NCBI GenBank assembly: GCA_009914755.4
Contig: CP068257.2
Location: 6,624,001-6,688,000 of the forward strand
Source of the DNA: the human T2T-CHM13v2.0 reference genome, Homo sapiens
Direction of reading: 5' to 3'
Length of the DNA stretch: 64,000 nucleotides
Positions 3,535 through 64,000 of this stretch are shown here, piece after piece; within the stretch, counting starts at the first letter, position 1; the number at the start of each line of letters is the position of its first letter. The notes under the pieces were generated by a model. The model saw nothing but the letters and a program-made list of their open reading frames with translations. It was not told the origin of the DNA and did not search any database. The position numbers and the translations under genes are program-made.

Positions 3535-3887
<353 letters not shown>

Positions 3888-4744: not shown

Positions 4745-5026
<282 letters not shown>

Positions 5027-5050
5027 GAGAGAGAGAGAGAGAGAGAAGTT
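5027..5050. repeat. (GA)n microsatellite derived from the Alu tail
   Basis: 'gagagagagagagagagagagaag'. Confidence 0.8.
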
Positions 5051-15879: not shown

Positions 15880-16275
15880 CTGTGGCTGAGTTTGTGGGCT
15901 CAGATGATAGCTCACAACAACCTGATTCAGTCCCCACTGTGGCTGTGTGTGGGGGGTCAGTGACAGGCCACCACAACTTGATTCTGTCCCCACTGTGGCT
16001 GTGTGTGGGGGGTCAGATGACAGGCCACCACAACTTGATTCAGTCCCCACTGTGGCTGTGTGTGGGGGGCAGATGACAGGCCACCAAAACCTGATTCAGT
16101 CCCCACTGTGGCTGTGTGTGGGGGGTCAGATGACAGGCCACCACAACTTGATTCATTCCCCACTGTGGCTGTGTGTGGGGGGGCAGATGACAGGCCACCA
16201 CAACCTGATTCAGTCCTCACTGCGGCTGAGTGTGTGTGGGTGCAGGTGACAGGCCACCACAACCTGATTCAGGAT
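15880..16275. repeat. 56-57-bp minisatellite, about 7 units (unit approximately tccccactgtggctgtgtgtggggggtcagatgacaggccaccacaacttgattcag)
   Basis: 'tcccc' unit starts fall at 15931, 15987, 16044, 16100, 16157 and 16214. Each unit carries a G6-7 run. Confidence 0.9.
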
Positions 16276-36520: not shown

Positions 36521-36683
36521 CCCAGAGACCCAGACTTAATGTATCAGGACTGGTCCCTACCCAGTTGACACAGATGTGGCATTCTGGTTCTTTATTAAAT
36601 ACTGGTTTCACAGCCTGGGACATTGTGAAAATAATGGAGAAATTTCAATAGAGGCCAATTGGTCTATGCTATGAATGAGTAAC

Positions 36684-36985
36684 TTTTTTTTTTTTTTGAG
36701 ACGGAGTCTCACTCTGTCGCCCAGGCTGGAATGTAATGGTGTGATCTTGGCTCACCGCAACCTCCGCTTCCCGGGTCCAAGTGATTCTCCTGCCTCAGCC
36801 TCCTAAGTACCTGGGATTACAGGCGCGTGCCACCACACTCCACACTCGCCTAATTTTTGTATTTTTAGTAGAGACTGGTTTTCACCATGTTGGTCAGGCT
36901 GGTCTCCAACTCCTGACCTCGTGATCCACCCTCCTCAGCCTCCCAAGGTGCTGGGATTACAAGCGTGAGCCACTGTGCCCAGCCC
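36684..36985 (-). mobile_element. Alu
   Basis: Poly-T then 'gagacggagtctcactctgtcgcccaggctggaatgtaatggtg…gccactgtgcccagcc'. Confidence 0.9.
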
Positions 36986-38903: not shown

Positions 38904-41010
<2,107 letters not shown>

Positions 41011-44000
41011 ATGGAATGGAACGGAAAGGAATCAACCTGAGTGGAATGGATTGGAATGGAAAGGAATGGAATGGAATTCAATGGAATGGAATTCAATGGA
41101 ATGGAATCAAATGGAAAGGAATGGAATGGAATGGAATGGAATGGAATGGAATGGAATGGAAGGGAATCAACCCGAGAGGAATGGATTGCAATGGAATGGA
41201 GTTATCCTGAGTGGAATGGAATGGAATGGAATCATCCGAGTGGAATGGAATGGAAGGGAATGCAATGGAATGGAATGGAATAGAATTAACACGAGTGACA
41301 TGGAATGGAAAGGAATGGAATAGAATTGAATGGAATGGAATCCACCCGAGTGGAATGGAATGGCATGGAATGCAATGGAATTGAACGGAATATAATGGAA
41401 TTAAATGGAATCATCCCGAGTGGAATGGAATGGTATCTAATGCAATGGAATGGAATGGAGCAGAACGGAATGGAATGGAAAGAATAGATTGAATCCAAGT
41501 GGAATTGAATGGAATGGAATGGATTGGAAAGGAATGGAATGGATTGGAATGGATTGGAATGGAAAGGAATGGATTCAACCCAAGTGGAATGTAATAGATT
41601 GGAATGGAAAGGAATAGAATGGAATGGAATGGAATGGAATCAACACGAATGGAATGGAACGGAATGGAATGGAATGGAATGGAATGGAATGGAATGGTAT
41701 GGAATGAAATGGAAAGGAACGGCATAGAATCAACAAAAGTGGAATGGAATGGAATGGAATGGAAGGGAATCAACACGAGTGGAATGGAATGGAAAGGAAT
41801 GCAATGGAATGGAATGGAATGGAATCAACCCGAGTGGAGTAGAAGGGAATGGAATGGAAACAACCCCAGTGGAATGGAATGGAATGGAATGCAATAGAAT
41901 GGAATGGAATGGAATGGAATGGAATTCAATGGAATCAACCCGAGTGGAAAGGAATGGTTTGGAATGCAATGGAATGGAGTTTAACAGAACGGAATGGAAT
42001 GGAATGGAATTGATTGAATCCGAGTGGAATTGAATGGAAGGGAATGCATTGGAAAGGAATGGAAAGGATTCAACCCGAGTGGAATGTAATGGATTGGAAT
42101 GGAGTGGAATGGAATTGAATGGAATGGAATGGAATGGAATCAACAGAAATGGAATGGAATGGAATGCAATGGAATAGAATGGAACGGAATGGAATGCAAT
42201 GGAAGAGAATGGAATGCAATGAAATGGAATAAACCCGAATGGAATGGAATGGAATGGAATGCAATGGAATGGAATGGAATGCAATGGAATGGAATGGAAT
42301 GCAATGGAATGGAATGGAATGGAATGGAATGGAATGGAATGGAATGGAATGGAATGAATTGTGATAAACCCGAATGGAATGGAATGGAATGGAATGGAAT
42401 GGAATGGAATGGAATGGAAAGGAGTGGAATGAAATAAACACCAGTGGAATGAAACGGAATAAAATGGAATGGAATGGAATGGAATGGAATGGAATGGAAA
42501 GGAATGAAATCTAGTCGAGTAGAATGGAACGGAATGCAATGGAATGGAATGGAAAGGAATGGAATCAACTGAAATGGAATGAAATGGAATGGAACGGAGT
42601 GGAATGGAATGGAAAGCAAAGGAATCAATAAGAGTGAAAAGCTATGGAATGGAACGGAATGGAATGGAATGGAGTGGAATGGAATCAACCCAAGTGGAGT
42701 GAAATAAAATGAAATGGAATTGAATGGAATCAACATGAGTGGAATTGAATGGAATGGAATGGAATGGAATGGTATCAACCAGAGTGGAATGGAATTGAAA
42801 GGAATGGAACGGAATGGAATGCAATGGAATCAACTGGAATGGAATGGAATGGAATGGAATGGAATGGAATGGAATGGAACGGAATCAACCTCAGTCAAAT
42901 AGAATGGAATGGAATTGAATGGAATGGAATGGAATGGAATGGAAACTACTGGAATGGAATGGAAACAACAAGAGTGGAATGGAATGCAAAGGAATGGAAT
43001 GGAATGGAATGGAATGTAAAGGAATGGAATGGAATCAACCTGACTGGAATGGAATGGAATGGAAAGGAATGAATGGAATGGAATGGAATAGAATGGAATT
43101 GTATGAAATGCAATGGTATGGAATTTAATGGAATGGAATGGAACGGAACGGAATGGAATGGAATTGACCCCAATGGAATGGAACGGAATGGAATGGATTG
43201 GAATGGAATGGAACGGAATTAACCCGAGTGGAACGGAATGTTATGGAATGGAGTGGAATGGAATGGAATGGAATGAAATGGAATGGAACAGAATCGAAAC
43301 CAATGGAATCAACTGGAATGGAATGGAATGGAATGGAATGGAATCAATCCGGGTGGAATGGAATGGTATGGAATACAATAGAATGGAATGGAATGGAATG
43401 GAATGGAATTCAATGGAATCAACCCCAGTGGAATAGAATGGTATGGAATGCAATGGAATGGAGTGGAACAGAACGGAATGGAATGTAATGGAATTGATTG
43501 AATCCGAGTGGAATTGAATGGAAGGGAATGCATTGGAAAGGAATGGAAAGGATTCAACCCGAGTGGAATGCAATGGATTGGAATGGAGTGGAATGGAATG
43601 GAATGGAAAGGAATGGAATGGAATGGAATCAACACAAATGGAATGGAATGGAATGGAATAGAATGGAAAGGAATGGAATGCAATGGAATCTAATGGAATG
43701 GAATGAAATGGAATAAACCCGAATGGAATGGAATGGAATGAAATGGAATGGAATGAAGTGGAATAAAGCCGAATGGAATGGAATGGAATGGAATGGAATG
43801 GAATGGAATGGAATGGAATGGAATGGAGTGGAATGGAATAAACACCAGTGGAATGAAATGGAATGGAATGGAATGGAATGGAAAGGAATGGAATGGAATG
43901 GAATAGAAAGGAATGAAATCAACCCGAGTAGAATGGAACAGAATGGAATGGAATGGAATGGAATGGAATGGAATGGAATGGAATGGAAAGGAATGGAATC

Positions 44001-45547
44001 AACTGGAATGGAATGAAATGGACTGGAATGGAGTGGAATGGAATAGAATGCAGTGGAATCAACAAGAGTGAAATGCAATGGAATGGAATGGAATGGAATC
44101 AACCCGAGTGGAGTGAAATAAAATGGAATGGAATGGAATGGAATGGAATGGAATGGAATGGAATGGAATGGAATGGAATGGAATAGCATGCAATCAACTT
44201 TGGTGGAATGGAATGGAATAGCATGCAATCAACTTTGGTGGAATGGTATGGAATGGTATGGAATGGAATGGAATGGAGTGGTACGGAATGGAATGGAATA
44301 AAAGGGCATGGAATGGAGTGGAATCAACCCGAGAGGAATGGAATGGAATGGAATGGAATGGAATGGAATGGAATGGAATGGAAATGAATCAAACCGAGTG
44401 GAATGGAATGGAATGGAGTGGAATGGAAACAATGCAAAGCAATGGTATCAACGGGAATGGAATGCATTGGAATGGAATGGAATGGAATCACCCTGAGTGG
44501 ATAGGAATGGAATGGAAGGGAATGGAAAGGAATGGAATGGAATGGAACCTAATGGAATGGAATTTAAACAACCCGAGTGGAACGGAATGGAATGGAATGG
44601 AATGGAATGGAATGGAATGGAATGGAATGGAATAAACACCAGTGGAATGAAATGGAATGGAATGGAAAGGAATGCAATGGAATAGAATGGAATGGAATGG
44701 AATGGAATGGAATGGAATGGAATGGAATGGAATCAACCCGAGTGGAGTAGAAAGGAATGGAATGGAATGGAATCAACCCCAGTGGAATGGAATGGAATGG
44801 AATGCAATAGAATGGAAAGGAATGGAATGGAATGGAATTCAATGGAATTAACCCGACAGGAATGGAATGGTATGGAATCCAATGGAATGGAGTGGAACAG
44901 AACGGAATGGAATGGAATGGAATTGACTGAATCCGAGTGGAATTGAATGGAACGGAATGCATTGGAAAGGAATGGAAAGGATTCAACCCGAGTGGAATGT
45001 AATGGATTGGAATGTAGTGGAATGGAATGGAATGGAATGGAATCAACACAAATGGAATGGAATGGAATGGAATGGAATGGAATAGAATGGAAAGGAATGC
45101 AATGCAATGGAATGGAATGGAATGGAATGAAATGGAATAAACCCGAAAGGAATGGAATGGAATGGAATGGAATGGAATGGAATGGAATGCAATGAATTGG
45201 AATAAACCCGAATGGAATGGAATGGAATGGAATGGAATGGAATGGAATGGAGTGCAATGGAATAAACACCAGTGGAATGAAATGGAATGGAATGGAATGG
45301 AATGGAATGGAATGGAATGGAATGGAATGGAATGGAATGAAATCAACCCGAGTAGAATGGAACAGAATGGAATGGAATGGAATGGAATGGAAAGGAGTGG
45401 AATCAACTAGAATGGAATGAAATTTAATGGAATGGAGTGGAATGGAATGGAATGCAATGGAATCAACAAGAGTGAAATGCAATGGAATGGAATGCAATGG
45501 AATCAACTAGAGTGAAATGCAATGGAATGGAATGGAATGGAATGGAA

Positions 45548-48500
45548 TCAACCCGACTGGAGTGAAATAAAATGGAATGGAATGGAATGGAATGGAATAA
45601 AATGGAATGGAATGGAATGGAAACAACGCGAGTGGAATGGAATGGAATGGAAGGGAGTAACCAGAGAGGAATGGAATGGAAAGGAGTGAAATGGAATGGA
45701 ATAGAATGGAATGGAATGGAATGGAATGGAATGGAATAGAATGAAAGGGAAAGGAATGGAATGGAAATAACCCCAGTGGAATGGAATGGATTGGAATGGA
45801 ATGGAATGGAATGGAATCAACCCCAGTTGAATGGAATGCAATGGAATGGAACGGAATATAATGGAATGGAACGGAAGCATCCCGAGTGCAATGGAATGGT
45901 ATGGAATGCAACAGAATGGAATGGAACAGAACGGAATGAAATGGGATGGAATAGATTGATTGCGAGTGGAATGGAATGCAATGGAATGGAATGGAATGGA
46001 ATGGAACGCATTGGAATGGATTGGAATGGAAAGGAATGGATTCAACCCGATTGGAATGTAATTGATTGGAATGGAATGGAATGGAATGGAATGGAATGGA
46101 ATGGAATGGAATGGAATGGAATCAACACGAATGGAATGGAACGGAATGGAATGGAATGGAATGGAATGAAAGGGAAAGGAACAGAATAGAATCAACCCAA
46201 GTGGAATGGAATGGAATGGAATGGAAGGGAATCAACACGAGTGGAATGGAATGGAAAGGAATGCAATGGAATGGAATGGAATGGAATGGAATGGAATGGA
46301 ATGGAATGGAATGGAATCAACCCGAGTGGAGTAGAATGGAATGGAATGGAATCAACCCCAGTGGAATGGAATGGAATGGAATGCAATAGAATTGAATGGA
46401 ATGGAATGGAACGGAATTCAATGGAATCAACCCAAGTGGAATGGAATGGTATGGAATGCCATGGAATGGAGTGGAACAGAACGGAATGGAATGGAATGGA
46501 ATTGATTGAATCCGAGTGGAATTGAATGGAAGGGAATGCATTGGAAAGGAATGGAAAGGATTCAACCCGCGTGGAATGTAATGGATTGGAATGGAGTGGA
46601 ATGGAATGGAATGGAATGGAGTGGAATGGAATCAACACAAATGGAATGGAATAGAATGGAAAGGAATGGAATGCAATGGAATGGAATGCAATGGAATGGA
46701 ATGAAATGGAATAAACCGGAATATAATGGAATGGAATTAAATGGAATAAACCGGAATGTAATGCAATGGAATGGAATGGAATGGAATGGAATGGAATGGA
46801 ATGGAATGAATTGGAAAAAACCCGAATGGAATGGAATGGAATGGAATGGAATGGAAGGGAATGGAAACTACTGGAATGGAATGGAAACAACCCGAGTGGA
46901 ATGGAATGCAATGGAATGCAATGGAATGGAATGGAATGGAATGGAATGGAATGGAATGGAATGGAATGTAAAGGAATGGAATGGAATAGAATGGAATTGT
47001 ATGGAATGCAATGGTATGGAATTGTATGGAATGGAACGGAACGGAACGGAATGGAATGGAATTCACCCCAATGGAATTGAATGGAATGGAATGGATTGGA
47101 ATGCAATGGAACGGAATTAACCCGAGTGGAATGGAATGTAATGGAATGGAGTGGAATGTAATGGAATGGAGTGGAATGTAATGTAAAGGAATGGAGTGGA
47201 ATGTAATGGAATGGAGTGGAATGGAATGGAATGTAAAGGATTGGAATGGAATGGAATGGAGTGGAATGGAGTGGAATGGAATGGAATGGAATCAACCCGA
47301 ATGGAATGGAACGGAATGGAATGGAATGGAATGGAATGGAATGGAAAGGAATGGAATGCAACGGAATAGAATGGAATCAACCCGAATGGGTTGGAATGAA
47401 ATGGAATGGAATGTAACGGAATGGAATGGAATGGAATGGAATGGAATGGAAAGGAATGGAATGCAACGGAATAGAATGGAATCAACCCGAATGGGTTGGA
47501 ATGAAATGGAATGGAATGAAATGGAATGGAATGATATGGAATCAACCGGAGTGTAATGTAAATGAATGGAATGGAATGGAATGGAATAGAATGGAATGGA
47601 ATGGAATGCTATGGAGTCAACAAGAGTGGAATGGAATGGAATGGAATGGAATGCAATGCAATGGAATGGAATGCAATGGAATGGAATGGAATGGAATGGA
47701 ATGAACCCAAATGGAGTGGAATGGAACGGAATGCAATGGAATGGAATGGAATAACATGCAATCACCTTTGGTGGAATGGAATGGAATGGAATGGAATGGA
47801 ATGGAATGGAATCAACCAGAGTGGACTGCAACGGAATAAAATGGAATGGAATGGAACTGAATGGAACGGAACGGAACGGAATTGAATACAATGGAATCAA
47901 CCCAAGTGGAAAGGAATGGAATGGAATGGAATGGAATGGAATAACATGCAATCAATGTTGGTGGAATGGCATGGAATGGTATGGAATGGAATGGAATGGA
48001 ATGGAATGGAATGGAATGGTATGGAATGGAATGGAATAAAAAGGCATGGAATGGAATGGAATCAACCCGAGGGGAATGGAATGGAATGGAATGGAATGGA
48101 ATGGAATGGAATGGAAATGAAGCAAACCGAGTCGAATGGAATGGAATGGAATGGAATGGAATGGAAACAATGCAATGCAGTGGTATCAACGCGAATGGAA
48201 TGCATTGGAACGGAATGGAATGGAATCACCCTGAATGGATAGGAATGGAATGGAAAGGAATGGAAAGGAATGGAATGGAATGGAAACTAATGGAATGGAA
48301 TGGAAAAAACTCGAGTGGAATGGAATGGAATGGAATGGAATGGAATGGAATGGAATACAACAAAATGGAAACAACCCGAGTGGAATGGCATGGAATGGAA
48401 AGGACCTGAATATAATGGAAAGGATTGGAATCAACGCGATTAGAAACTAATGGAATGGAATGGAATGGAAGGGAATGGAATGGAATGGAATGGAATGGAA

Positions 48501-50848
48501 TGGAAAGGAATCTACTCGAGTGGAATGGAATGTAATGGAATTAAATGGAATGGAATGGAATGGAAAGGAATGGAATGGAATCCACCCGAGTGGAATGGAA
48601 TGGAATGGAATGCAATGGAATTGAACGGAATATAATGGAATTCAATGGAATCATCCCGAGTGGAATGGAATGGTATCTAATGCAATGGAATGGAACGGAA
48701 CAGAACGGAATGGAATGGAAATAATAGATTGAATCCAAGTGGAATTGAATGGAATGGAATGGATTGGAAAGGAATGGAATGGATTGGAATGGATTGGAAT
48801 GGAATGGAATGGAATGGAATGGAATGGAATCAACACGAATAGAATGGAACGGAATGGAATGGAATGGAATGGAATGGTATGGAATGAAATGGAAAGGAAC
48901 GGAATAGAATCAACCCAAGTGGAATGGAATGGAATGCAATGGAAGGGAATCAACACGAGTGGAATGGAATGGAAAGGAATACAATGGAATGGAATGGAAT
49001 GGAATGGAATGGAATGGAATGGAATCAACCCGAGTGGAGTAGAATGGAATAGAATGGAATCAACCGCAGTGGAATGGAATGGAATGGAATGGAATAGAAT
49101 GGAATTCAATGGAATCAACCCGAGTGGAATGGAATGGTATGGAATGCAATGGAATGGAGTGGAACAGAACGGAATGGAATGGAATGGAATTGATTGAATC
49201 CGAGTGGAATTGAATGGAAGGGAATGCGTTGGAAAGGAAAGGAAAGGATTCAACCCGAGTGGAATGTAATGGATTGGAATGGAGTGGAATGGAATGGAAT
49301 GGAATGGAATGGAATGGAATGGAATGGAATGAATTGGAATAAACCCGAATGGAATGGAATGGAATGGAATTTAATGGTGTGGAATGGAATAAACACCAGT
49401 GGAATGGAATGGAATGGAATGGAATGGAATGGAATGGAATTGAATGGAAAGGAATGAAATCAACCCGAGTAGAATGGAACAGAATGGGATGGAATGGAAT
49501 GGAATGGAAATGAATGGAATCAACTGGAATGGAATGAAATGGAATGGAATGGAGTGGAATGGAATGGAATGCATTGGAATCAACAAGAGTGAAATGCAAT
49601 GGAAAGGAATGGAATGGAATGGAATGGAATAGAATGGAATCACCCGAGTGGAGAGAAATAAATTGGAATGGAATGGAATGGAATCAACCTGAGTGGAACG
49701 GAATGGAATGGAATGGAATGGAACGGAATGGAATGCAATGGAATGGAATGGAATGGAAACTACTGGAATGGAATGGAAACAACCCGAGTGGAATGAAATG
49801 CAAAGGAATGGAATGGAGTGGAATGGAATGGAACGGAATGGAATGGAATTGAATGGAATGGAGTCAACACAAGTGGAAAGGAATGGAATGGAATGGAATG
49901 GAATGGAATGGAATGGAATGGAACGGAATAAACACCAGTGGAATGAAATGGAATGGAATGGAATGGAATGGAATGGAATGGAATGGAATGGAATGGAAAG
50001 GAATGAAATCAACCCGAGTAGAATGGAACGGAATGGAATGGAATGGAATGGAATGGAATGGAAAGGAATGGAATCAGCTGGAATGGAATGAAATGGAATG
50101 GAATGGAGTGGAATGGAATGGAATGCAATGGAATCAACAAGAGTGAAATGCAATGGAATGGAATGGAATGGAATGGAATGGAATGGAATGGAATGGAATG
50201 GAATTGAATCAACCCGAGTGGAGTGAAATAAAATGAAATGGAATGGAATGGAATCAACCTAAGTGGAACGGAATGGAATGTAATGGAATCGAATGGAATG
50301 GAATGGAATGCAATGGAATCAACTGGAATGGAATTGAATGGAATGGAATGGAATGGAATGGAATGGAAAGGAACGGAATCATCCTGAGTCAAATAGAATG
50401 GAATGGAATGGAATCGAATGGAATGGAATGGAATGGAATGGAATGGAATGGAATGGAATGGAAACTACTGGAATGGAATGGAAACAACCCGAGTGGAATG
50501 GAATGCAATGGAATGGAATGGAGTGGAATGGAAAGGAATGGAATGGAATCAACACGAGTGGACTGCAACGGAATGAAATGGAATGGAATGCAATGGAATG
50601 GAATGGAATGGAATGGAACGGAACGGAACGGAATTGAATGGAATGGAATCAACCCAAGTGGAAAGGAATGGAATGGAATGGAATGGAATGGAAAGGAATG
50701 GAATCAACTAGAATGGAATGAAATTTAATGGAATGGAGTGGAATGGAATGGAATGCAATGGAATGAACAAGAGTGAAATGCAATGGAATGGAATGCAATG
50801 GAATCAACTAGAGTGAAATGCAATGGAATGGAATGGAATGGAATGGAA
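45548..50848 (+). repeat. HSat3 higher-order repeat, copy 1 (about 5.3 kb)
   Basis: The marker 'gggagtaaccagagagg' sits at 45653 and 50954 (offset 5301). Long translated stretches of the two copies are identical or differ by 1 aa (e.g. track ORFs 45548..46195 vs 50849..51346; 46211..46525 vs 51497..51811; 48651..49253 vs 53862..54800). Confidence 0.85.
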
Positions 50849-53800
50849 TCAACCCGACTGGAGTGAAATAAAATGGAATGGAATGGAATGGAATGGAATA
50901 AAATGGAATGGAATGGAATGGAAACAACGCGAGTGGAATGGAATGGAATGGAAGGGAGTAACCAGAGAGGAATGGAATGGAATGGAGTGAAATGGAATGG
51001 AATAGAATGGAATGGAATGGAATGGAATGGAATGGAATAGAATGAAAGGGAAAGGAATGGAATGGAAATAACCCCAGTGGAATGGAATGGATTGGAATGG
51101 AATGGAATGGAATGGAATCAACCCCAGTTGAATGGAATGCAATGGAATGGAACGGAATATAATGGAATGGAACGGAAGCATCCCGAGTGCAATGGAATGG
51201 TATGGAATGCAACAGAATGGAATGGAACAGAACGGAATGAAATGGGATGGAATAGATTGATTGCGAGTGGAATGGAATGCAATGGAATGGAATGGAATGG
51301 AATGGAACGCATTGGAATGGATTGGAATGGAAAGGAATGGATTCAACCCGATTGGAATGTAATTGATTGGAATGGAATGGAATGGAATGGAATGGAATGG
51401 AATGGAATGGAATCAACACGAATGGAATGGAACGGAATGGAATGGAATGGAATGGAATGAAAGGGAAAGGAACAGAATAGAATCAACCCAAGTGGAATGG
51501 AATGGAATGGAATGGAAGGGAATCAACACGAGTGGAATGGAATGGAAAGGAATGCAATGGAATGGAATGGAATGGAATGGAATGGAATGGAATGGAATGG
51601 AATCAACCCGAGTGGAGTAGAATGGAATGGAATGGAATCAACCCCAGTGGAATGGAATGGAATGGAATGCAATAGAATTGAATGGAATGGAATGGAACGG
51701 AATTCAATGGAATCAACCCAAGTGGAATGGAATGGTATGGAATGCAATGGAATGGAGTGGAACAGAACGGAATGGAATGGAATGGAATTGATTGAATCCG
51801 AGTGGAATTGAATGGAAGGGAATGCATTGGAAAGGAATGGAAAGGATTCAACCCGCGTGGAATGTAATGGATTGGAATGGAGTGGAATGGAATGGAATGG
51901 AATGGAGTGGAATGGAATCAACACAAATGGAATGGAATAGAATGGAAAGGAATGGAATGCAATGGAATGGAATGCAATGGAATGGAATGAAATGGAATAA
52001 ACCGGAATGTAATGGAATGGAATTAAATGGAATAAACCGGAATGTAATGTAATGTAATGGAATGGAATGGAATGGAATGGAATGGAATGAATTGGAAAAA
52101 ACCCGAATGGAATGGAATGGAATGGAATGGAATGGAAGGGAATGGAAACTACTGGAATGGAATGGAAACAACCCGAGTGGAATGGAATGCAATGGAATGC
52201 AATGGAATGGAATGGAATGGAATGGAATGGAATGGAATGGAATGTAAAGGAATGGAATGGAATAGAATGGAATTGTATGGAATGCAATGGTATGGAATTT
52301 AATGGAATGGAACGGAACGGAACAGAATGGAATGGAATTCACCCCAATGGAATTGAATGGAATGGAATGGATTGGAATGCAATGGAACGGAATTAACCCG
52401 AGTGGAATGGAATGTAATGGAATGGAGTGGAATGTAATGGAATGGAGTGGAATGTAATGTAAAGGAATGGAGTGGAATGTAATGGAATGGAGTGGAATGG
52501 AATGGAATGTAAAGGATTGGAATGGAATGGAATGGAGTGGAATGGAGTGGAATGGAATGGAATGGAATCAACCCGAATGGAATGGAACGGAATGGAATGG
52601 AATGGAATGGAATGGAATGGAAAGGAATGGAATGCAACGGAATAGAATGGAATCAACCCGAATGGGTTGGAATGAAATGGAATGGAATGTAACGGAATGG
52701 AATGGAATGCAATGGAATGGAATGGAATGGAAAGGAATGGAATGCAACGGAATAGAATGGAATCAACCCGAATGGGTTGGAATGAAATGGAATGGAATGA
52801 AATGGAATGGAATGATATGGAATCAACCGGAGTGTAATGTAAATGAATGGAATGGAATGGAATGGAATAGAATGGAATGGAATGGAATGCTATGGAGTCA
52901 ACAAGAGTGGAATGGAATGGAATGGAATGGAATGCAATGCAATGGAATGGAATGCAATGGAATGGAATGGAATGGAATGGAATGAACCCAAATGGAGTGG
53001 AATGGAACGGAATGCAATGGAATGGAATGGAATAACATGCAATCACCTTTGGTGGAATGGAATGGAATGGAATGGAATGGAATGGAATCAACCAGAGTGG
53101 ACTGCAACGGAATAAAATGGAATGGAATGGAACTGAATGGAACGGAACGGAACGGAATTGAATACAATGGAATCAACCCAAGTGGAAAGGAATGGAATGG
53201 AATGGAATGGAATGGAATAACATGCAATCAATGTTGGTGGAATGGCATGGAATGGTATGGAATGGAATGGAATGGAATGGAATGGAATGGAATGGTATGG
53301 AATGGAATGGAATAAAAAGGCATGGAATGGAATGGAATCAACCCGAGGGGAATGGAATGGAATGGAATGGAATGGAATGGAAACAATACAATGCAGTGGT
53401 ATCAACGCGAATGGAATGCATTGGAACGGAATGGAATGGAATCACCCTGAATGGATAGGAATGGAATGGAAAGGAATGGAAAGGAATGGAATGGAATGGA
53501 AACTAATGGAATGGAATGGAAAAAACTCGAGTGGAATGGAATGGAATGGAATGGAATGGAATGGAATACAACAAAATGGAAACAACCCGAGTGGAATGGC
53601 ATGGAATGGAAAGGACCTGAATATAATGGAAAGGATTGGAATCAACGCGATTAGAAACTAATGGAATGGAATGGAATGGAAGGGAATGGAATGGAATGGA
53701 ATGGAATGGAATGGAAAGGAATCTACCCGAGTGGAATGGAATGTAATGGAATTAAATGGAATGGAATGGAATGGAAAGGAATGGAATGGAATCCACCCGA

Positions 53801-56150
53801 GTGGAATGGAATGGAATGGAATGCAATGGAATTGAACGGAATATAATGGAATTCAATGGAATCATCCCGAGTGGAATGGAATGGTATCTAATGCAATGGA
53901 ATGGAACGGAACAGAACGGAATGGAATGGAAAAAATAGATTGAATCCAAGTGGAATTGAATGGAATGGAATGGATTGGAAAAGAATGGAATGGATTGGAA
54001 TGGATTGGAATGGAATGGAATGGAATGGAATGGAATGGAATCAACACGAACAGAATGGAACGGAATGGAATGGAATGGAATGGAATGGTATGGAATGAAA
54101 TGGAAAGGAACGGAATAGAATCAACCCAAGTGGAATGGAATGGAATGCAATGGAAGGGAATCAACACGAGTGGAATGGAATGGAAAGGAATACAATGGAA
54201 TGGAATGGAATGGAATGGAATGGAATGGAATGGAATCAACCCGAGTGGAGTAGAATGGAATAGAATGGAATCAACCGCAGTGGAATGGAATGGAATGGAA
54301 TGGAATAGAATGGAATTCAATGGAATCAACCCGAGTGGAATGGAATGGTATGGAATGCAATGGAATGGAGTGGAACAGAACGGAATGGAATGGAATGGAA
54401 TTGATTGAATCCGAGTGGAATTGAATGGAAGGGAATGCGTTGGAAAGGAATGGAAAGGATTCAACCCGAGTGGAATGTAATGGATTGGAATGGAGTGGAA
54501 TGGAATGGAATGGAATGGAATGGAATGGAATGGAATGAATTGGAATAAACCCGAATGGAATGGAATGGAATGGAATTTAATGGTGTGGAATGGAATAAAC
54601 ACCAGTGGAATGGAATGGAATGGAATGGAATGGAATGGAATTGAATGGAAAGGAATGAAATCAACCCGAGTAGAATGGAACAGAATGGGATGGAATGGAA
54701 TGGAATGGAAATGAATGGAATCAACTGGAATGGAATGAAATGGAATGGAATGGAGTGGAATGGAATGGAATGCATTGGAATCAACAAGAGTGAAATGCAA
54801 TGGAAAGGAATGGAATGGAATGGAATGGAATAGAATGGAATCACCCGAGTGGAGAGAAATAAATTGGAATGGAATGGAATGGAATCAACCTGAGTGGAAC
54901 GGAATGGAATGGAATGGAATGGAACGGAATGGAATGCAATGGAATGGAATGGAATGGAAACTACTGGAATGGAATGGAAACAACCCGAGTGGAATGAAAT
55001 GCAAAGGAATGGAATGGAGTGGAATGGAATGGAACGGAATGGAATGGAATTGAATGGAATGGAGTCAACACAAGTGGAAAGGAATGGAATGGAATGGAAT
55101 GGAATGGAATGGAATGGAATGGAATGGAATGGAACGGAATAAACACCAGTGGAATGAAATGGAATGGAATGGAATGGAATGGAATGGAATGGAATGGAAT
55201 GGAATGGAAAGGAATGAAATCAACCCGAGTAGAATGGAACGGAATGGAATGGAATGGAATGGAATGGAATGGAAAGGAATGGAATCAGCTGGAATGGAAT
55301 GAAATGGAATGGAATGGAGTGGAATGGAATGGAATGCAATGGAATCAACAAGAGTGAAATGCAATGGAATGGAATGGAATGGAATGGAATGGAATGGAAT
55401 GGAATGGAATTGAATCAACCCGAGTGGAGTGAAATAAAATGAAATGGAATGGAATGGAATCAACCTAAGTGGAACGGAATGGAATGTAATGGAATCGAAT
55501 GGAATGGAATGGAATGCAATGGAATCAACTGGAATGGAATTGAATGGAATGGAATGGAATGGAATGGAATGGAAAGGAACGGAATCATCCTGAGTCAAAT
55601 AGAATGGAATGGAATGGAATCGAATGGAATGGAATGGAATGGAATGGAATGGAATGGAATGGAATGGAAACTACTGGAATGGAATGGAAACAACCCGAGT
55701 GGAATGGAATGCAATGGAATGGAATGGAGTGGAATGGAATGGAATGGAATGGAATCAACACGAGTGGACTGCAACGGAATGAAATGGAATGGAATGCAAT
55801 GGAATGGAATGGAATGGAATGGAACGGAACGGAACGGAATTGAATGGAATGGAATCAACCCAAGTGGAAAGGAATGGAATGGAATGGAATGGAATGGAAT
55901 GGAATGGAATGAAATAGCATGCAATCAAATTTGGTGGAATGGTATGGAATGGTATTGAATGGAATGGAATGGAATGGAATTGTATGGAATGGAATGGAAT
56001 TTAACCGAGTGGAAAGGAATGTAATGAAATTAAATGGTATGGAATGGAATGGAATGGAATGGAATGGAATGTACCCGAGTGGAATGGAATGGAATGGAAT
56101 TTAATGGAATGGAATGGAATAGAATGATATGGAATCAACCCGAGTGGAAT
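50849..56150 (+). repeat. HSat3 higher-order repeat, copy 2 (about 5.3 kb, about 99% identical to copy 1)
   Basis: Same markers at +5301. A diverged 'ggagtaaccggagagg' at 56251 (+5296) marks the start of a third, more diverged unit. Confidence 0.85.
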
Positions 56151-59100
56151 GGTATAGAATGGAACGTAATGGAACGGAATGGAATGGAATAAAATGGAAT
56201 GGAATGGAATGGAATGGAAACTACCCGAGTGGAGTGGAATGGAATGGAATGGAGTAACCGGAGAGGAATGGAATGGAATGGAGTGGAATGTAATGGAATA
56301 GAATGGAATGGAATGGAATAGAATAGAATGAAATGGAAAGGAACGGAATGGAAATAACCCGAGTGGAATGGAATGGAATGGAATGGAATGGAATGGAATG
56401 GAATGGAATGGAATCAACCCCAGTTGAATGGAATGGAATGGAATGGAATTTAACGGAATATAATGGAATGGAACGGAATCATCCTGAATGGAATGGAATG
56501 GTATGGATTGCAACAGAATGGAATGGAACAGAACGGAATGAAATGGAATGGAATAGATTGAATGCGAGTGGAATGGAATGGATTGGAATGGAATGGAACG
56601 GATTGGAGTGGAATGCAATGGAATCAACACCAATGGGATGGAACGGAATGGAATGGAATGGAACGGAATGGAATGGAATGGAACGGAATGGAATCAACCC
56701 GATTGGAATGGAATGGAATGGAATGGAATCCACCCGAGTGGAATAGAATGGAATGGAATGCAATGGAATTGAACGGAATATAATGGAATTAAATGGAATC
56801 ATCCCGAGTGGAATGGAATGGTATCTAATGCAATTTAATGGAATGGAGCAGAATGGAATGGAATAGAAAGAATAGATTGAATCCAAGTGGAATTGAATGG
56901 AATGGAATGGATTGGAAAGGAATGGAATGGAATGGATTGGAATGGAATGGAATGGAAAGGAATGGATTCAACCCCAGTGGAATGTAATGGATTGGAAAGG
57001 AATGGAATGGAATGGAATGGAATGGAATGGAATCAACACGAATGGAATGGAACGGAACGGAATGGAATGGAATGGAATGGTATTGAATGAAATGGAAAGG
57101 AACGGAATAGAATCAACCCAAGTGGAATGGAATGGAATGGAATGGAATGGAATGGAATGGAATGGAATGGAATGGAATCAACCCGAGTGGAGTAGAATGG
57201 AATGGAATGGAATCAACCCCAGTGGAATGGAATGGAATGGAATGCAATAGAATGGAAAGGAATGGAATGGAATGGAATTCAATGGAATCAACCCGAGTGG
57301 AAAGGAATGGTATGGAATGCAATGGAATGGAGTGGAATGGAATGGAATCAACGCGAGTTGAATGGAATGGAATGGAATGGAACGGAATATAATGGAATGG
57401 AACGGAATCATCCCGAGTGGAATGGAATGGTATGGAATGCAATAAAACGGAAAGGAACAGAACGGAATGAAATGGAATGGAATAGATTGAATGCTAGTGG
57501 AATTCAATGGAATGGAATGGATTGGAATGGAATGGAATGGATTGGAGTGGAATGGAATGGAATCAACACGAATGGGATGGAACGGAATGGAACGGAATGG
57601 AATGGAATGGAATAGAATGGAATGAAATGGAATGGAATGGAATCAACCCGAGTGGAATGGAATGGAATGGAATGGAATCCACCCGAGTGGAATGGAATGG
57701 AATGGAATGCAATGGAATTGAACGGAATATAATGAAATTAAATGGAATCATCCCGAGTGGAATGGAATGCTATATAATGCAATGGAATGGAATGGAACAG
57801 AACGGAATGGAATGGAAAGAACAGATTGAATCCAAGTGGAATTGAATGGAATGGAATGGATTGGAAAGGAATGGAATGGATTGGAATGGATTGGAATGGA
57901 AAGGAATGGATTCAACCCGAGTGGAATGTAATGGATTGGAATGGAATGGAATGGAATGCGATGGAATGGAATGGAATGGAATCAAAAAGAATGGAATGGA
58001 ACGGAATGGAATGGATTAGAATGGAATGGAATGGAATGGAATGGAATGAAATCAACCCGAGTAGAATGGAACAGAATGGAATGGAATGGAATGGAATGGA
58101 AAGGAATGGAATCAACTAGAATGGAATGAAATTTAATGGAATGGAGTGGAATGGAATGGAATGCAATGGAATCAACAAGAGTGAAATGCAATGGAATGGA
58201 ATGGAATGGAATGGAATGGAATGGAATGGAATGGAATCAACCCGACTGGAGTGAAATAAAATGGAATGGAATGGAATGGAATGGAATGGAATAAAATGGA
58301 ATGGAATGGAATGGAAACAACGTGAGTGGAATGGAATGGAATGGAATGGAGTAACCAGAGAGGAATGGAATAGAATGGAGTGAAATGGAATGGAATAGAA
58401 TGGAATGGAATGGAATGGAATGGAATAGAATGAAAGGTAAAGGAATGGAATGGAAATAACCCGAGTGGAATGGAATGGAATGGAATGGAATGGAATGGAA
58501 TGGAATGGAAGCAACCCCAGTTGAATGGAATGCAATGGAATGGAACGGAATATAATGGAATGGAACAGAAGCATCCCGAGTGCAATGGAATGGTATGGAA
58601 TACAACAGAATGGAATGGAACAGAACGGAATGAAATGGGATGGAATAGATTGATTGCGAGTGGAATGGAATGCAATGGAATGGATTGGAATGGAATGGAA
58701 CGCATTGGAATGGATTGGAATGGAAAGGAATGGATTCAACCCGATTGGAATGTAATTGATTGGAATGGAATGGAATGGAATGGAATGGAATGGAATGGAA
58801 TGGAATCAACACGAATGGAATGGAACGGAATGGAATGGAATGGAATGGAATGGAATGAAATGGAAAGGAACAGAATAGAATCAACCCAAGTGGAATGGAA
58901 TGGAATGGAATGGAAGGGAATCAACACGAGTGGAATGGAATGGAAAGGAATGCAATGGAATGGAATGGAATGGAATGGAATGGAATGGAATGGAATGGAA
59001 TCAACCCGAGTGGAGTAGAATGGAATGGAATGGAATCAACCCCAGTGGAATGGAATGGAATGGAATGCAATAGAATTGAATGGAATGGAATGGAACGGAA

Positions 59101-59449
59101 TTCAATGGAATCAACCCAAGTGGAATGGAATGGTATGGAATGCAATGGAATGGAGTGGAACAGAACGGAATGGAATGGAATGGAATTGATTGAATCCGAG
59201 TGGAATTGAATGGAAGGGAATGCATTGGAAAGGAATGGAAAGGATTCAACCCGCGTGGTATGTAATGGATTGGAATGGAGTGGAATGGAATGGAATGGAA
59301 TGGAGTGGAATGGAATCAACACAAATGGAATGGAATAGAATGGAAAGGAATGGAATGCAATGGAATGGAATGCAATGGAATGGAATGAAATGGAATAAAC
59401 CGGAATGTAATGGAATGGAATTAAATGGAATAAACCGGAATGTAATGGA

Positions 59450-61830
59450 ATGGAATGGAATGGAATGGAATGAATTGGAAAAAACCCGAATCGAATGGAA
59501 TGGAATGGAATGGAATGGAAGGGAATGGAAACTACTGGAATGGAATGGAAACAACACGAGTGGAATGGAATGCAATGGAATGCAATGGAATGGAATGGAA
59601 TGGAATGGAATGGAATGTAAAGGAATGGACTGGAATAGAATGGAATTCTATGGAATGCAATGGTATCGATTTGAATGGAATGGAATGGAACGGAACGGAA
59701 TGGAATGGAATTGACTCCAATGGAATTGAATGGAATGGAATGGATTGCAATGGAATGGAACGGAATTAACCCGAGTGGAATGGAATGTAATGGAATGGAG
59801 TGGAATGTAATGGAATGGAGTGGAATGTAATGTAAAGGAATGGAGTGGAATGTAATGGAATGGAGTGGAGTGGAATGGAATGGAATGGAATGGAATGGAA
59901 AGGAATGGAATCAATCCGGGTGGAATGGAATGGAATGTAACGGATTGGAATGGAATGGAATGGAGTGGAATGGAGTGGAATGGAATGGAATGGAATGGAA
60001 TGGAATCAACCCGAATGGAATGGAACGGAATGGAATGGAAAGGAATGGAATGGAATGGAATGGAATGGAATGAAATGGAATAAACCGGAATGTAATGGAA
60101 TGGAACGGAATGGAATGGAATGGAATGGAATGGAATGAATTGGAATAAACCCGAATGGAATAGAATGCAATGGAATGCAATGGAAAGGAATGGAATGGAA
60201 TGGAATGGAATGGAGTGGAATGGAATAAACACCAGTGGAATGAAATGGAATGGAATGGAATGGAATGGAATGGCATGGAATGGAATAAAATCAACCCGAG
60301 TAGAATGGAACGGAATGGAATGGAATGGAATGGAATGGAAAGGAATGGAATCAACTGGAATGGAATGAAGTGGAATGGAATGGAGTGGAATGGAATGGAA
60401 TGCAATGGAATCAACAAGAGTGAATTGCAATGGAATGGAAAGGAATGGAAAGGAATGGAATGGAATGGAATGGAATTGAATCAACCCGAGTGGAGTGAAA
60501 TAAAATGAAATGGAATGGAATGGAATCAACCTGAGTTCAACGGAATGGAATGGAATGGAATGGTATCAACAAGAGTGGAATGGAATGGAATTGAATGGAA
60601 TGGAACGGAATGGAATGAAATGGAAAAAACTGGAATGGAATGGAATGGAAAGGAATGGAACGGAATCAACCTGAGACAAATAGAATGGAATGGAATGGAA
60701 TGGAATGGAAGGGAATGGAAACTACTGGAATGGAATGGAAACAACACGAGTGGAATGGAATGCAATGGAATGCAATGGAATGTAATGGAATGGAATGGAA
60801 TGGAATGGAATGTAAAGGAATGGACTGGAATAGAATGGAATTCTATGGAATGCAATGGTATCGATTTGAATGGAATGGAACGGAACGGAACGGAATGGAA
60901 TGGAATTGACTCCAATGGAATTGAATGGAATGGAATGGATTGCAATGGAATGGAATGGAATTAACCAGAGTGGAATGGAATGTAATGGAATGGAGTGGAA
61001 TGAAATGGAACGGAGTGGAATGTAATGTAAAGGAATGGAGTGGAATGTAATGGAATGGAGTGGAATGGAATGGAATGGAATGGAATGGAATGGAAAGGAA
61101 TGGAATCAATCCGGGTGGAATGGAATGGAATGTAACGGATTGGAATGGAATGGAATGGAGTGGAATGGAGTGGAATGGAATGGAATGGAATGGAATGGAA
61201 TCAACCCGAATGGAATGGAACGGAATGGAATGGAAAGGAATGGAATGGAATGGAATGGAATGGAAAGGAATGGAATGCAACGGAATAGAATGGAATCAAC
61301 CCGAATGGGTTGGAATGAAATGGAATGGAATGAAATGGAATGGAATGATATGGAATCAACCGGAGTGTAATGTAAATGAATGGAATGGAATGGAATGGAA
61401 TAGAATGGAATGGAATGGAATGCTATGGAAACAACCCGAGTGGAATGGAATGGAATGGAATGGAATGGAATGGAATGGAATGGAATGCAATGCAATGGAA
61501 TGGAATGCAATGGAATGGAATGGAAAGGAATGGAATGGAATGGAATGGAATGAACCCTAATGGAATGGAATGGAACGGAATGCAATGGAATGGAATGGAA
61601 TAACATGCAATCAACTTTGGTGGAATGGTATGGAATGGAATGGAATGGAATGGAATGGAATGGAATGGAATGGAATGGAATCAACCAGAGTGGACTGCAA
61701 CGGAATAAAATGGAATGGAATGGAACTGAAAGGAACGGAACAGAACGGAATTGAATAGAATGGAATCAACCCAAGTGGAAAGGAATGGAATGGAATGGAA
61801 TGGAATGCAATGGAATGGAATGGAATAGCA
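59450..61830 (+). repeat. Approximately 1.2-kb tandem duplication within distal HSat3 (two copies, about 59.45-60.64 and 60.64-61.83 kb)
   Basis: Track ORFs 59840..60073 and 61035..61370 share MEWNVMEWSG.EWNGMEWNGKEWNQSGWNGMECNGLEWNGMEWNGVEWNGMEWNGINPNGMERNGMERNGMEWNGME (offset 1195). 59455..59769 matches 60640..60909; on the - strand 59648..60529 matches 60843..61280. Confidence 0.75.
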
Positions 61831-64000
61831 TGCAATCAAAGTTGGTGGAATGGCATTGAATGGTATGGAGTGGAATGGAATGGATTGGAATGGTATGGAA
61901 TGGAATGGAATAAAAAAGCATGGAATGGAATGGAATCAACCCGAGAGGAATGGAATGGAATGGAATGGAATGGAATGGAATGGAATGGAATGGAAATAAA
62001 GCAAACCGAGTGGAATGGAATGGAATGGAATGGAATGGAATGGAATCAACACAAATGGAATGGAATGGAATGGAATGGAATGGAATAGAATGGAAAGGAA
62101 TGGAATGCAATTGAATGGAAAGGAATGGAATGGAATAAACCCGAATGGAATGGAATGGAATGGAATGGAATGGAATGGAATGGAATGGAAAGAATTAGAA
62201 TAAACCCGAATGGAATGGAATGGAATGGAATTTAATGGTGTGGAACGGAATAAACACCAGTGGAATGAAATGGAATGGAATGGAATGGAATTGAATGGAA
62301 AGGAATGAAATCAACCCGAGTAGAATGGAACAGAATGGAATGGAATCGAATGGAATGGAAAGGAATGGAATCAACTGGAATGGAATGAAATGGAATGGAA
62401 TGGAGTGGAATGGAATGGAATGCATTGGAATCAACAAGAGTGAAACGCAATGGAAAGGAATGGAATGGAATGCAATGGAATTGAATGGAATGGAATAGAA
62501 TGGAATCAACCCGAGTGGAGTGAAATAAATTGGAATGGAATGGAATGGAATCAACCTGAGTGGAACGGAATGGAATGGAAAGGAATGGAACGGAATGGAA
62601 TGCATTGGAATCAACTGGAATGGAATGGAATGGAATGGAACGGAATCAACCTGAGTCAAATAGAATGGAATGGAATGGAATGGAATGGAATGGAATGGAA
62701 TGGAATGGAAACTACTGGAATGGAATGGAAAAAACCCGAGTGGAATGGAATGCAATGGAATGGAATGGAGTGGAATGGAATGGAATGGAATGGAATAAAC
62801 ACGAGTGGACTGCAACGGAATGAAATGGAATGGAATGCAATGGAATGGAATGGAATGGAACGGAACGGAATGGAATTGAATGGAATGGAATCAACCCAAG
62901 TGGAAAGGAATGGAATGGAATGGAATGGAATAGCATGCAATCAAATTTGGTGGAATGGTATGGAATGGTATGGATTGGAATGGAATGGAATGGAATTGTA
63001 TGGAATGGAATGGAATTTAACCGAGTGGAAAGGAATGGAATGGAAATAACCCGAGTGGAATGGAATGGAATGGAATGGAATGGAATGGAATGGAATGGAA
63101 TGGAATCAACCCCAGTTGAATGGAATGGAAAGGCATGGAACGGAATATAATGGAATGGAACGGAAACATCCCGAGTGGAATGGAATGGTATGGAATGCAA
63201 CAGAATGGAATGGAACAGAACGGAATGAAATGGAATGGAAAAGATTGAATGCGAGTGGAATGGAATGGAATGGAATGGATTGGAATGGAATGGAACGGAT
63301 TGGAGTGGAATGGAATGGAATCAACACGAATGGGATGGAAACAAATGGAATGGAATGGAATGGAATGGAATGGAATGGAACGGAATGGAATCAACCCGAT
63401 TGGAATGGAATGGAATGGAATGGAATCCACCCGAGTGGAATGGAATGGAATGGAATGCAATGGAATTGAACAGAATATAATGGAATTAAATGGAATCATC
63501 CCGAGTGGAATGGAATGGTATCTAATGCAATTTAATGGAATCGAACAGAACGGAATGGAATAGAAAGAATAGATTGAATCCAAGTGGAATTGAATGGAAT
63601 GGAATGGATTGGAAAGGAATGGAATGGACTGGAATGGATTTGAATAGAAAGGAATGGATTCAACCCGAGTGGAATGTAATGGATTGGAATGGAATGGAAT
63701 GGAATGGAATGGAATGGAATGGAATGGAATGGAATCAACCCGAGTGGAGTAGAATGGAATGGAATGGAATCAACCCCAGTGGAATGGAATGGAATGGAAT
63801 GCAATAGAATGGAAAGGAATGGAATGGAATGGAATTCAATGGAATTCACCGGAGTGGAAAGGAATGGTATGCAATGCAATGGAATAGAGTGGAATGGAAT
63901 GGAATCAACGAGAGTTGAATGTAATGGAATGGAATGGAACGGCCTATAATGGAATGGAACGGAATCATCCAGAGTGGAATGGAATGGTATGGAATGCAAT

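What the first reader, a model, noticed from the sequence alone, without database searches (positions are those of the whole stretch)
45548..56150. Approximately 5.3-kb higher-order repeat within Human Satellite III: two adjacent copies at about 99% identity
Inside the GGAAT array the base pentamer is organised into a long multimeric unit of roughly 1060 pentamers. Diagnostic variant strings recur at +5301 and +5296 bp (45653, 50954, 56251; also 'ggaaataaccc[ca]agtgg' at about 45766, 51067, 56349). Six-frame translations of the two central copies are identical over hundreds of codons. HSat3 higher-order repeats are chromosome- and subfamily-specific, so this approximately 5.3-kb period is a handle for assigning the array to a chromosome and subfamily and for judging its homogenisation. 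It is established that HSat3 forms higher-order repeats; I cannot tell from the sequence whether this particular period is catalogued.
Basis: seen in the sequence. Interest (0 to 1): 0.6.

Follow-up and report, generated by a model that had tools for sequence, protein, structure and literature searches.

The report
Local 5.3-kb duplication inside HSat3
Inside an ordinary GGAAT (Human Satellite 3-type) array, one 5.3-kb stretch has been duplicated once in tandem and the copies are still about 99.7% alike; this is a local event of a well-known kind, not a repeat period that characterises the whole array.

Summary
The core observation holds. Window 45393-50693 (copy A, 5301 bp) and 50694-55899 (copy B, 5206 bp) are adjacent, head-to-tail and collinear. 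They differ by 16 substitutions (99.69%) and 12 indels, every one a multiple of 5 bp (97.35% if gap columns count). Background identity in the same array is about 80-95%.

The "higher-order repeat" reading is only partly supported. There are exactly two copies. Identity falls to background immediately outside them. All three edges sit in the same exact 28-bp (GAATG)5GAA run, which is the signature of one out-of-register exchange or slippage event.

A rearranged partial relative (copy C, 58.1-62.9 kb) lies 2.1 kb further on. An NTRprism-style spectrum at default settings shows no multi-kb period. The 5.2-5.3 kb peak disappears when copy B is removed.

Published work already describes multi-kb units in GAATG arrays and period lengths that vary locally ("nested tandem repeats"). 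Chromosome and subfamily could not be assigned with these tools. A 48-bp CER-like satellite in the flank hints at 14q11, 22q11, 18p11 or an acrocentric short arm. Ordinary; low interest.

The parts
41009..64000 (+). HSat3-type (GGAAT)n array, single orientation, running off the window end
   Evidence: TRF: period 5, 4601.8 copies, 73% matches. 100-122 GGAAT per kb and 0 ATTCC. 46 exact CAACCCGAGT and 235 at <=2 mismatches, about one per 98 bp.
45365..45392 (+). Left breakpoint: exact 28-bp run GAATGGAATGGAATGGAATGGAATGGAA
   Evidence: The same 28-mer is found in register at all three edges. Identity between the sequence left of A and the end of A is 56-85% upstream of it.
45393..50693 (+). Copy A of the duplicated segment (5301 bp), ending in the middle 28-bp run (50666-50693)
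50694..55899 (+). Copy B (5206 bp), ending in the right 28-bp run (55872-55899). Relative to A it has 16 substitutions and a net 95 bp fewer, through 12 indels that are all multiples of 5 bp, including a 60-bp gap opposite A 48074-48133
   Evidence: B is the only region collinear with A over the whole unit (41 tiles, mean 98.5%).
56199..57948 (+). Two overlapping ~1-kb 'mini-units' (56199-57323 and 57199-57948).
   Evidence: The outside contig L002 matches 55984-57337 at 91.7%.
58173..59660 (+). Copy C, young patch: third copy of unit positions ~70-1620, about 98.8% substitution identity to A and B. Its best stretch, 58685-59492, has only 3 substitutions against B
   Evidence: Polarised A/B differences: 4 derived in A, 3 in B, 2 unresolved, so C is the outgroup to (A,B).
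59661..62948 (+). Copy C, old rearranged part: roughly collinear with unit ~1620-2800 and ~3940-5300 at 84-95%. It lacks unit ~2800-3940 and carries an internal 1195-bp duplication (about 59401-60200 against 60596-61395, 91-98.5%)
62949..63698 (+). Third mini-unit (unit ~273-762 plus ~3082-3456), 88-94% to A and 90-95% to 56.3-57.8 kb
41600..46600 (+). Older zone with ~1.4-1.6 kb spacing of shuffled sub-blocks (offsets 1399-1599) at 83-92% identity
   Evidence: A 1400-bp bin is among the top bins in the default NTRprism-style spectrum.
40112..41005 (+). Old L1 ORF2 fragment cut off by the start of the array
   Evidence: 70.4% identity over 911 bp to ORF2 of the younger L1 at 25272-26157. The sequence reads ...TATATGAAACCATAAGAATGGAATGG.

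Best explanation
A single, fairly recent tandem duplication of a 5.3-kb stretch near the edge of an HSat3-type pentameric satellite array.

- **Event (inferred).** Two chromatids, or a slipping or re-priming replication end, paired out of register by 5301 bp at identical (GAATG)5GAA runs. Unequal exchange then produced L-A-B-R from L-X-R.
- **Possible help from older homology (inferred).** Sequence just right of each run is 82-88% alike (45.4-46.0 kb against what is now 56.0-56.6 kb), which may have helped the mispairing.
- **Later change (differences shown, cause inferred).** The copies then drifted apart by 16 point changes and 12 pentamer-slippage indels.
- **Context (shown).** This is the top layer of a stack of local duplications. 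Copy C has a ~1.5-kb patch at about 99%. There is a 1195-bp duplication, ~1-kb mini-units at 85-96%, and ~1.4-1.6 kb spacing at 83-92%. This is the 'nested tandem repeat' behaviour published for HSat2,3.
- **Function.** The sequence indicates no function of its own. It is a by-product of satellite turnover.

Shown: the anatomy, the identities, the shared breakpoint run and the copy number in the window. Inferred: the exchange mechanism, the order of events and the age.
For: - Exactly two collinear copies with sharp edges. Identity is 98-100% per 100 columns inside (lower only in the few blocks that contain an indel) and 56-85% immediately outside.
- The same exact 28-bp pentamer run sits at L|A, A|B and B|R. 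A|B equals B|R to its left and L|A to its right.
- All 12 indels are multiples of 5 bp.
- 99.69% substitution identity, against 80-95% background.
- The NTRprism-style 5.2-5.3 kb peak depends entirely on copy B.
- C is the outgroup to (A,B), at about 1.2% against 0.3% divergence in the shared 1.6 kb.
- Literature: HSat2,3 long units are described as NTRs that expand 'hyper-locally', and the predominant NTR length varies widely along the chr20 HSat3B3 array. Multi-kb HORs cover part of some GAATG arrays.
Against: - Only 23 kb at one edge of the array is visible. A homogeneous 5.3-kb domain beyond 64 kb cannot be excluded.
- The 0.6 kb after copy B is collinear with the unit start at 82-88%. Copy C is partly collinear too. 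An older, decayed periodicity of similar length is therefore possible.
- The mechanism cannot be observed from sequence. Unequal crossover, replication slippage or template switching, and break-induced replication would all leave this junction.
- Reads supporting the assembly were not available.
Confidence: 0.77

Rival explanations
1. A true multi-copy 5.3-kb higher-order (nested tandem) repeat. A and B would be the last well-homogenised members of a domain whose other members are decayed (56.0-56.6 kb, copy C) or lie beyond the window end.
For: - The unit start recurs at +5296 after B at 82-88%.
- Copy C is partly collinear with the unit.
- HORs that cover only part of a GAATG array are documented, e.g. 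Yq11.1 with 3360 and 5630 bp.
Against: - There is no third collinear copy in 8 kb downstream or 4.4 kb upstream.
- Identity left of A is at background.
- C is displaced by 2.1 kb, lacks ~1.1 kb and has its own duplication.
- The default NTRprism-style spectrum has no multi-kb peak.
Confidence: 0.12
2. Two old neighbouring copies that were re-homogenised by one long gene-conversion tract, rather than a recent duplication.
For: Conversion-like patchiness does occur here. Copy C is 99.6% identical to B over 58685-59492 but about 86% from 59870 onwards.
Against: - Identity is uniform over the full 5.2 kb.
- Both ends coincide with the same 28-bp run that also forms the A|B junction. A conversion tract spanning exactly one period would be a coincidence.
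- The left flank shows no older collinear copy.
Confidence: 0.07
3. Assembly artefact: a false tandem duplication, for example two haplotypes or two mis-joined read sets of a single 5.3-kb segment.
For: The level of difference (0.3% substitutions plus pentamer-length indels) is also what allelic satellite haplotypes or noisy long reads might show. Satellites are prone to misassembly (general knowledge).
Against: - The junction is a clean in-register pentamer run.
- The differences are spread evenly along the unit.
- Copy C shares derived states with A at some sites and with B at others, as expected for real paralogs.
- No read data could be examined.
Confidence: 0.04

Closest known systems
Nested tandem repeats (NTRs) in HSat2,3 arrays, T2T-CHM13 centromere study (bioRxiv 10.1101/2021.07.12.452052; chr20 HSat3B3 example, Fig. 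S10)
   Same: A multi-kb unit built from diverged (CATTC)n. The expansion is recent and local. Period length changes over short distances. Older layers are nested beneath it.
   Different: Only two copies are seen here, so this is at most a nascent NTR. The published cases were called on windows of about 100 kb with many copies. The subfamily of this array is undetermined.
Multi-kb HORs in GAATG arrays: DYZ1 3.56-3.6 kb (HSat3A6), Yq11.1 3360 and 5630 bp, 4p11 (Warburton 2008, PMC2588610; Altemose 2014 Table S1)
   Same: Pentameric GAATG satellite with a long secondary unit of a few kb and near-identical copies.
   Different: Those periods run across tens of kb or whole arrays with many copies. 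Here there is one pair. The lengths 5301 and 5206 bp match none of the listed periods. None of the flagship subfamily 24-mers is present exactly.
Acrocentric HSat3 clone units of 1.37-1.56 kb (pTRS-47, pTRS-63, HUMASAT3, pW-1, pR-1, pR-2; Altemose 2014 Table S1)
   Same: The older layer of this array shows 1.40-1.60 kb spacing. The flank carries a 48-bp CER-like satellite, a family reported on acrocentrics, 14q11, 22q11 and 18p11.
   Different: This is a resemblance in period only. Identity between the ~1.4-kb repeats here is only 83-92%.
Tandem segmental duplication by non-allelic homologous recombination or replication slippage between direct repeats (general mechanism)
   Same: L-A-B-R structure with identical short homology at all three edges.
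   Different: The 'direct repeats' are just runs of the satellite's own pentamer, so the substrate is available everywhere in the array.

Membership tests
Human Satellite 3 (GGAAT/CATTC pentameric satellite) | Dominant 5-bp period with GGAAT consensus | tested here: met
   TRF: period 5, 4601.8 copies, consensus GAATG. 55% of bases lie in exact GGAAT.
Human Satellite 3 (GGAAT/CATTC pentameric satellite) | Interspersed CAACCCGAGT-type 10-mer (classical satellite III description; from my own knowledge) | tested here: met
   46 exact copies and 235 at <=2 mismatches, about every 98 bp, all on the + strand.
Human Satellite 3 (GGAAT/CATTC pentameric satellite) | Not HSat2 (23/26-bp structure, HSat2-specific 24-mers) | tested here: met
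   TRF reports only period 5. None of the three HSat2 flagship 24-mers is present, even at 1 mismatch.
Human Satellite 3 (GGAAT/CATTC pentameric satellite) | Human (or ape) pericentromeric or acrocentric location | not testable with these tools
   No human or ape genome is available. The primate context is supported by about 20 Alu copies and L1 ORF1/RT domains in the flank.
HSat3 subfamily A1-A6 / B1-B5 (Altemose 2014) | Enrichment of subfamily-specific 24-mers | tested here: inconclusive
   Only the 14 most common 24-mers (Table 1) could be tested. None is exact. HSat3B3's has 4 matches at <=1 mismatch. The held part of Dataset S2 shown (part 1 of 10) lists only HSat2A1; the file is sorted by subfamily.
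Higher-order repeat (alpha-satellite sense, as used by the T2T authors) | Unit composed of a discrete number of monomers of similar length | tested here: not met
   The base unit is a 5-bp motif with irregular variants. The two copies differ in length by 95 bp through pentamer indels. Definition taken.
Higher-order repeat (alpha-satellite sense, as used by the T2T authors) | Many head-to-tail copies, so that the period dominates the array | tested here: not met
   Two copies only. No multi-kb peak at NTRprism default settings, and the peak is lost when B is removed. This applies to the 23 kb visible.
Nested tandem repeat in HSat2,3 (T2T-CHM13) | Multi-kb unit derived from (CATTC)n and repeated in tandem, with copies far more alike than the internal sub-repeats | tested here: met
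   A/B at 99.69%, against 78-92% for sub-blocks within the unit. Minimal case: 2 copies.
CER 48-bp satellite (flank, 4-776) | 48-bp tandem unit | tested here: met
   TRF: period 48, 16.1 copies, 80% matches. CER is described as a 48-bp repeat.
CER 48-bp satellite (flank, 4-776) | Sequence match to the CER consensus | not testable with these tools
Four 20-22-mers of the unit were not found in any searchable paper.

The most novel reading that the evidence does not exclude
The A/B pair may be the visible edge, or the seed, of an uncatalogued locus-specific 5.2-5.3 kb nested tandem repeat domain. Its copy number would vary between human haplotypes, making it a multi-kb VNTR inside a pericentromeric or acrocentric HSat3 array. 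It could then serve as a structural marker for that array's haplotypes.
Probability: 0.15. Interest if true: 0.3.

Novelty: already known. Interest (0 to 1): 0.12.

Why it matters
It matters little beyond book-keeping.

- It is a clean, base-resolved example of how pentameric satellites grow. An out-of-register exchange at a perfect pentamer run copies several kb. Pentamer slippage then outpaces point mutation per site: 12 indel events against 16 substitutions in 5.2 kb.
- For annotation, the lesson is that a strong off-diagonal from one pair should not be reported as the period of an array.
- If the duplication turns out to vary in copy number between haplotypes, it could be a modest marker for that HSat3 block.

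Tried and rejected
- **Inverted HSat3 at the window start.** The 13 ATTCC in the first kb suggested this. Rejected: it is a 48-bp satellite whose unit happens to contain ATTCC.
- **Subfamily classification with published 24-mers.** The 14 flagship 24-mers gave no exact hit. The stored part of Dataset S2 shown lists only HSat2A1.
- **The same locus elsewhere.** The prokaryote genome contig scan gave 0 hits. The metagenome scan gave two human-contaminant contigs, but both are paralogs (82-92%). L002 is a different array edge, inside another L1 position.
- **Exact look-up of 8 satellite ORFs** in the 15-billion-protein collection: none present.
- **Confirming CER by sequence** through a literature text search: 0 papers. 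The probe sequence is not printed in the NOR papers.
- **Placeable genes in the flank.** Non-repeat ORFs have no Pfam hit; only L1 ORF1 and RT domains matched. Rfam found nothing at gathering thresholds.
- **Shuffles in 50- and 200-bp blocks** were poor nulls, because they keep A/B-matching blocks. Only the 5-bp block shuffle is quoted.
- **First tile BLAST** timed out at word size 11. It was rerun at word size 20.
Full report
**What is in the window.** Bases 1-41008 are non-satellite, repeat-rich primate DNA. From 41009 to the window end there is one uninterrupted GGAAT array on the + strand. It carries 100-122 GGAAT per kb and no ATTCC. TRF sees it as a single period-5 array of 4601.8 copies. 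It also carries the classical satellite III 10-mer: 46 exact CAACCCGAGT and 235 at up to 2 mismatches, about one per 98 bp. None of the HSat2 flagship 24-mers is present. The HSat3-type label is therefore sound. 'Human' rests on context only: about 20 Alu copies, plus L1 ORF1 and reverse-transcriptase domains. No human genome could be searched.

**Checking the observation.**
- Rare-k-mer diagonals put the strongest signal at offsets 5201-5301.
- Global alignment shows a sharply bounded pair. Inside it, 100-column identity is mostly 98-100%, with lower values only in the few blocks that hold an indel. Immediately outside it is 56-85%.
- The core (A 45398-50693 against B 50699-55899) has 5170 matches, 16 substitutions and 125 gap columns in 12 indel events. 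Every indel is a multiple of 5 bp, and one is 60 bp. That gives 99.69% substitution identity, or 97.35% counting gap columns.
- Elsewhere in the array the best non-self match of a 400-bp tile is about 80-95%.
- Long BLAST alignments between unrelated parts of the array run at 78-81%.
- A 5-bp block shuffle gives at most 4 shared rare 32-mers on one diagonal, against 933 observed.

Several details need correcting:
- The true span is 45365/45393-55899, not 45548-56150.
- The first diagnostic string is exact only at 45650 and 50951.
- The second string is present only twice. The site at 56350 reads ...AACCCGAGTGG.
- The longest identical run is 475 bp, about 158 codons, and the frame shifts at each 5-bp indel.

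**Anatomy of the junctions.** The same exact 28-mer, GAATGGAATGGAATGGAATGGAATGGAA, lies at 45365-45392, 50666-50693 and 55872-55899.
- Left of the middle run, the sequence equals what precedes the right run.
- Right of the middle run, it equals what follows the left run.

This is the L-A-B-R pattern expected from a single exchange between two pentamer runs that were 5301 bp apart.

**Is it a higher-order repeat?** Every 250-bp tile of the array was mapped onto copy A.
- Only copy B is collinear with A over the whole unit (41 tiles, mean 98.5%).
- Upstream (41.0-45.4 kb) is a shuffled set of unit sub-blocks at 81-97%, with ~1.4-1.6 kb spacing.
- After B come two overlapping ~1-kb mini-units (56199-57323 and 57199-57948). 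Each joins unit positions ~205-770 to ~3080-3660.
- Copy C follows at 58.1-62.9 kb, then a third mini-unit at 62949-63698.

Copy C is two-layered.
- From 58173 to about 59660 it is about 98.8% identical (substitutions) to A and B. The stretch 58685-59492 has only 3 substitutions against B.
- From about 59870 divergence jumps to roughly 14%.
- The remainder lacks unit ~2800-3940 and holds its own 1195-bp duplication.
- Polarising the A/B differences with C gives 4 derived in A, 3 derived in B and 2 unresolved. C therefore branches outside (A,B).

The NTRprism-style interval spectrum gives the same answer.
- With published defaults (k=6, minimum count 10) the top bins above 300 bp are 325, 525 and 1400 bp. 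There is no multi-kb peak.
- With 2-copy k-mers allowed, the 5200, 5275 and 5300 bins dominate.
- When copy B is deleted in silico they disappear, leaving 7475 (A to C) and 1175.

The '5.3-kb period' is carried by one pair.

**Mechanism.**
- *Shown:* two copies, sharp edges, shared pentamer-run microhomology, indels only in multiples of five, and a stack of older and younger local duplications around them.
- *Inferred:* out-of-register pairing at identical (GAATG)5GAA runs produced a tandem duplication. It could have happened by unequal sister-chromatid or homolog exchange, or by a replication-based slip or template switch.
- The 82-88% similarity of the ~0.6 kb to the right of each run may have stabilised the mispairing.
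- Pentamer slippage then produced 12 length changes, and point mutation produced 16 substitutions: 6 transitions and 10 transversions. Three of the transversions are A<->T inside GGAA[A/T]GG.
- At 0.5e-9 substitutions per bp per year, 0.31% divergence corresponds to roughly 3 My. This is a rough inference that ignores gene conversion and satellite-specific rates.

**Rivals.**
- *A real multi-copy repeat* whose other members are decayed or lie beyond 64 kb is not excluded, because only the array edge is visible. Nothing in 12 kb of flanking array supports it.
- *Re-homogenisation of two old copies by conversion* is unlikely. The tract would have to coincide exactly with one period and end at the same run that forms the junction. 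Patchy conversion-like identity does occur in copy C, though.
- *An assembly artefact* cannot be tested without reads. The pattern of shared derived states with C argues for real paralogs.

**Outside sequence.**
- A scan of prokaryote genome contigs found nothing.
- The metagenome collection held two human-contaminant contigs with the diagnostic motif.
  - L001 is 81-88% identical to the array.
  - L002 is 91.7% identical to the mini-unit region 55984-57337. It is itself an array edge abutting an L1 ORF2 fragment broken at a different position.
- These contigs are paralogs. They show that the mini-unit module is more widespread than the 5.3-kb unit.
- Eight satellite ORFs are absent from the protein collection.

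**Comparison with what is known.**
- Warburton et al. 2008 already reported that some 'simple' GAATG arrays contain highly homologous multi-kb HORs over part or all of the array: 4p11, Yq11.1 (3360 and 5630 bp) and Yq12 (3600 bp).
- Altemose et al. 2014 list clone units of 0.6-3.6 kb for HSat3 subfamilies.
- The T2T centromere study names such units nested tandem repeats. [quoted passage not shown]

The present case is a minimal two-copy instance of that behaviour. I found no listing of a 5.2-5.3 kb HSat3 unit. A single local pair would not be catalogued as a period anyway.

**Chromosome and subfamily.** Neither was resolved.
- None of the 14 flagship 24-mers is present. HSat3B3's comes closest, with 4 sites at up to 1 mismatch.
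- The flank starts with a 48-bp satellite (4-776) that is cut by the window edge.
- CER is a 48-bp family reported distal to rDNA on all acrocentrics, and at 14q11.1, 22q11.1 and 18p11.21.
- Only the period was matched here, not the sequence.
- The older ~1.4-1.6 kb spacing resembles the unit sizes of acrocentric HSat3 clones, 1366-1556 bp. This is a resemblance only.

**Verdict.** The HOR interpretation is only partly supported. The phenomenon is ordinary and already described. Interest is low.

Noticed in passing
window 4-776: 48-bp tandem repeat (16.1 copies, 80% matches, consensus CTGCTGGGGTCTGAATGTTTGTCCCTCACATAGGATTCCAGAACACTG), cut by the window start. The period matches the CER satellite of 14q11, 22q11, 18p11 and acrocentric short arms. 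The sequence match could not be tested. It explains the ATTCC counts in the first kb.
   Followed up: partly
window 30325-31479: 35-bp minisatellite, 33 copies, 85% matches (GAGTGACGTGCTAAACCAGAAACCCAAAACAATGG). hsat4 is described as a 35-bp satellite, but no sequence comparison was possible.
   Followed up: no
window 40112-41008: The HSat3 array begins abruptly inside an old L1 ORF2 fragment (70% to the younger L1 in the window). An unrelated HSat3 array edge from a metagenome contaminant (L002) also abuts an L1 ORF2 fragment, at a different L1 position.
   Followed up: partly
window 22894-26817: Long L1 on the + strand with a 219-aa ORF1 (Transposase_22 domains, E=1e-56) and ORF2 split into several ORFs (RVT_1, E=2e-32).
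   Followed up: partly
window 15869-16272: 57-bp (also 113- and 170-bp) GC-rich minisatellite, about 7 copies at 90%. It gives a spurious 142-aa repetitive ORF.
   Followed up: no
window 1988-2596: Two adjacent short tandem repeats, 157 bp x2 and 100 bp x3.
   Followed up: no
window ~19000-20000 and ~36000-37000: GC-rich kilobases (GC 0.58 and 0.56) in an otherwise AT-rich flank. Long overlapping ORFs on both strands at 18740-19364 and an ORF at 35983-36450 lie at or next to them and have no Pfam hit. These could be CpG-island-like sequence; not examined.
   Followed up: no
window 58685-59492 vs 51292-52109 and 45991-46828: An ~0.8-kb stretch of copy C is as similar to B (3 substitutions) as A is to B, while the next kb of C is about 14% diverged. 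This is a sharp identity step, suggesting a gene-conversion patch or a separate small duplication.
   Followed up: partly
window 59401-60200 vs 60596-61395: Separate 1195-bp tandem-like duplication inside copy C, 91-98.5% identical.
   Followed up: partly
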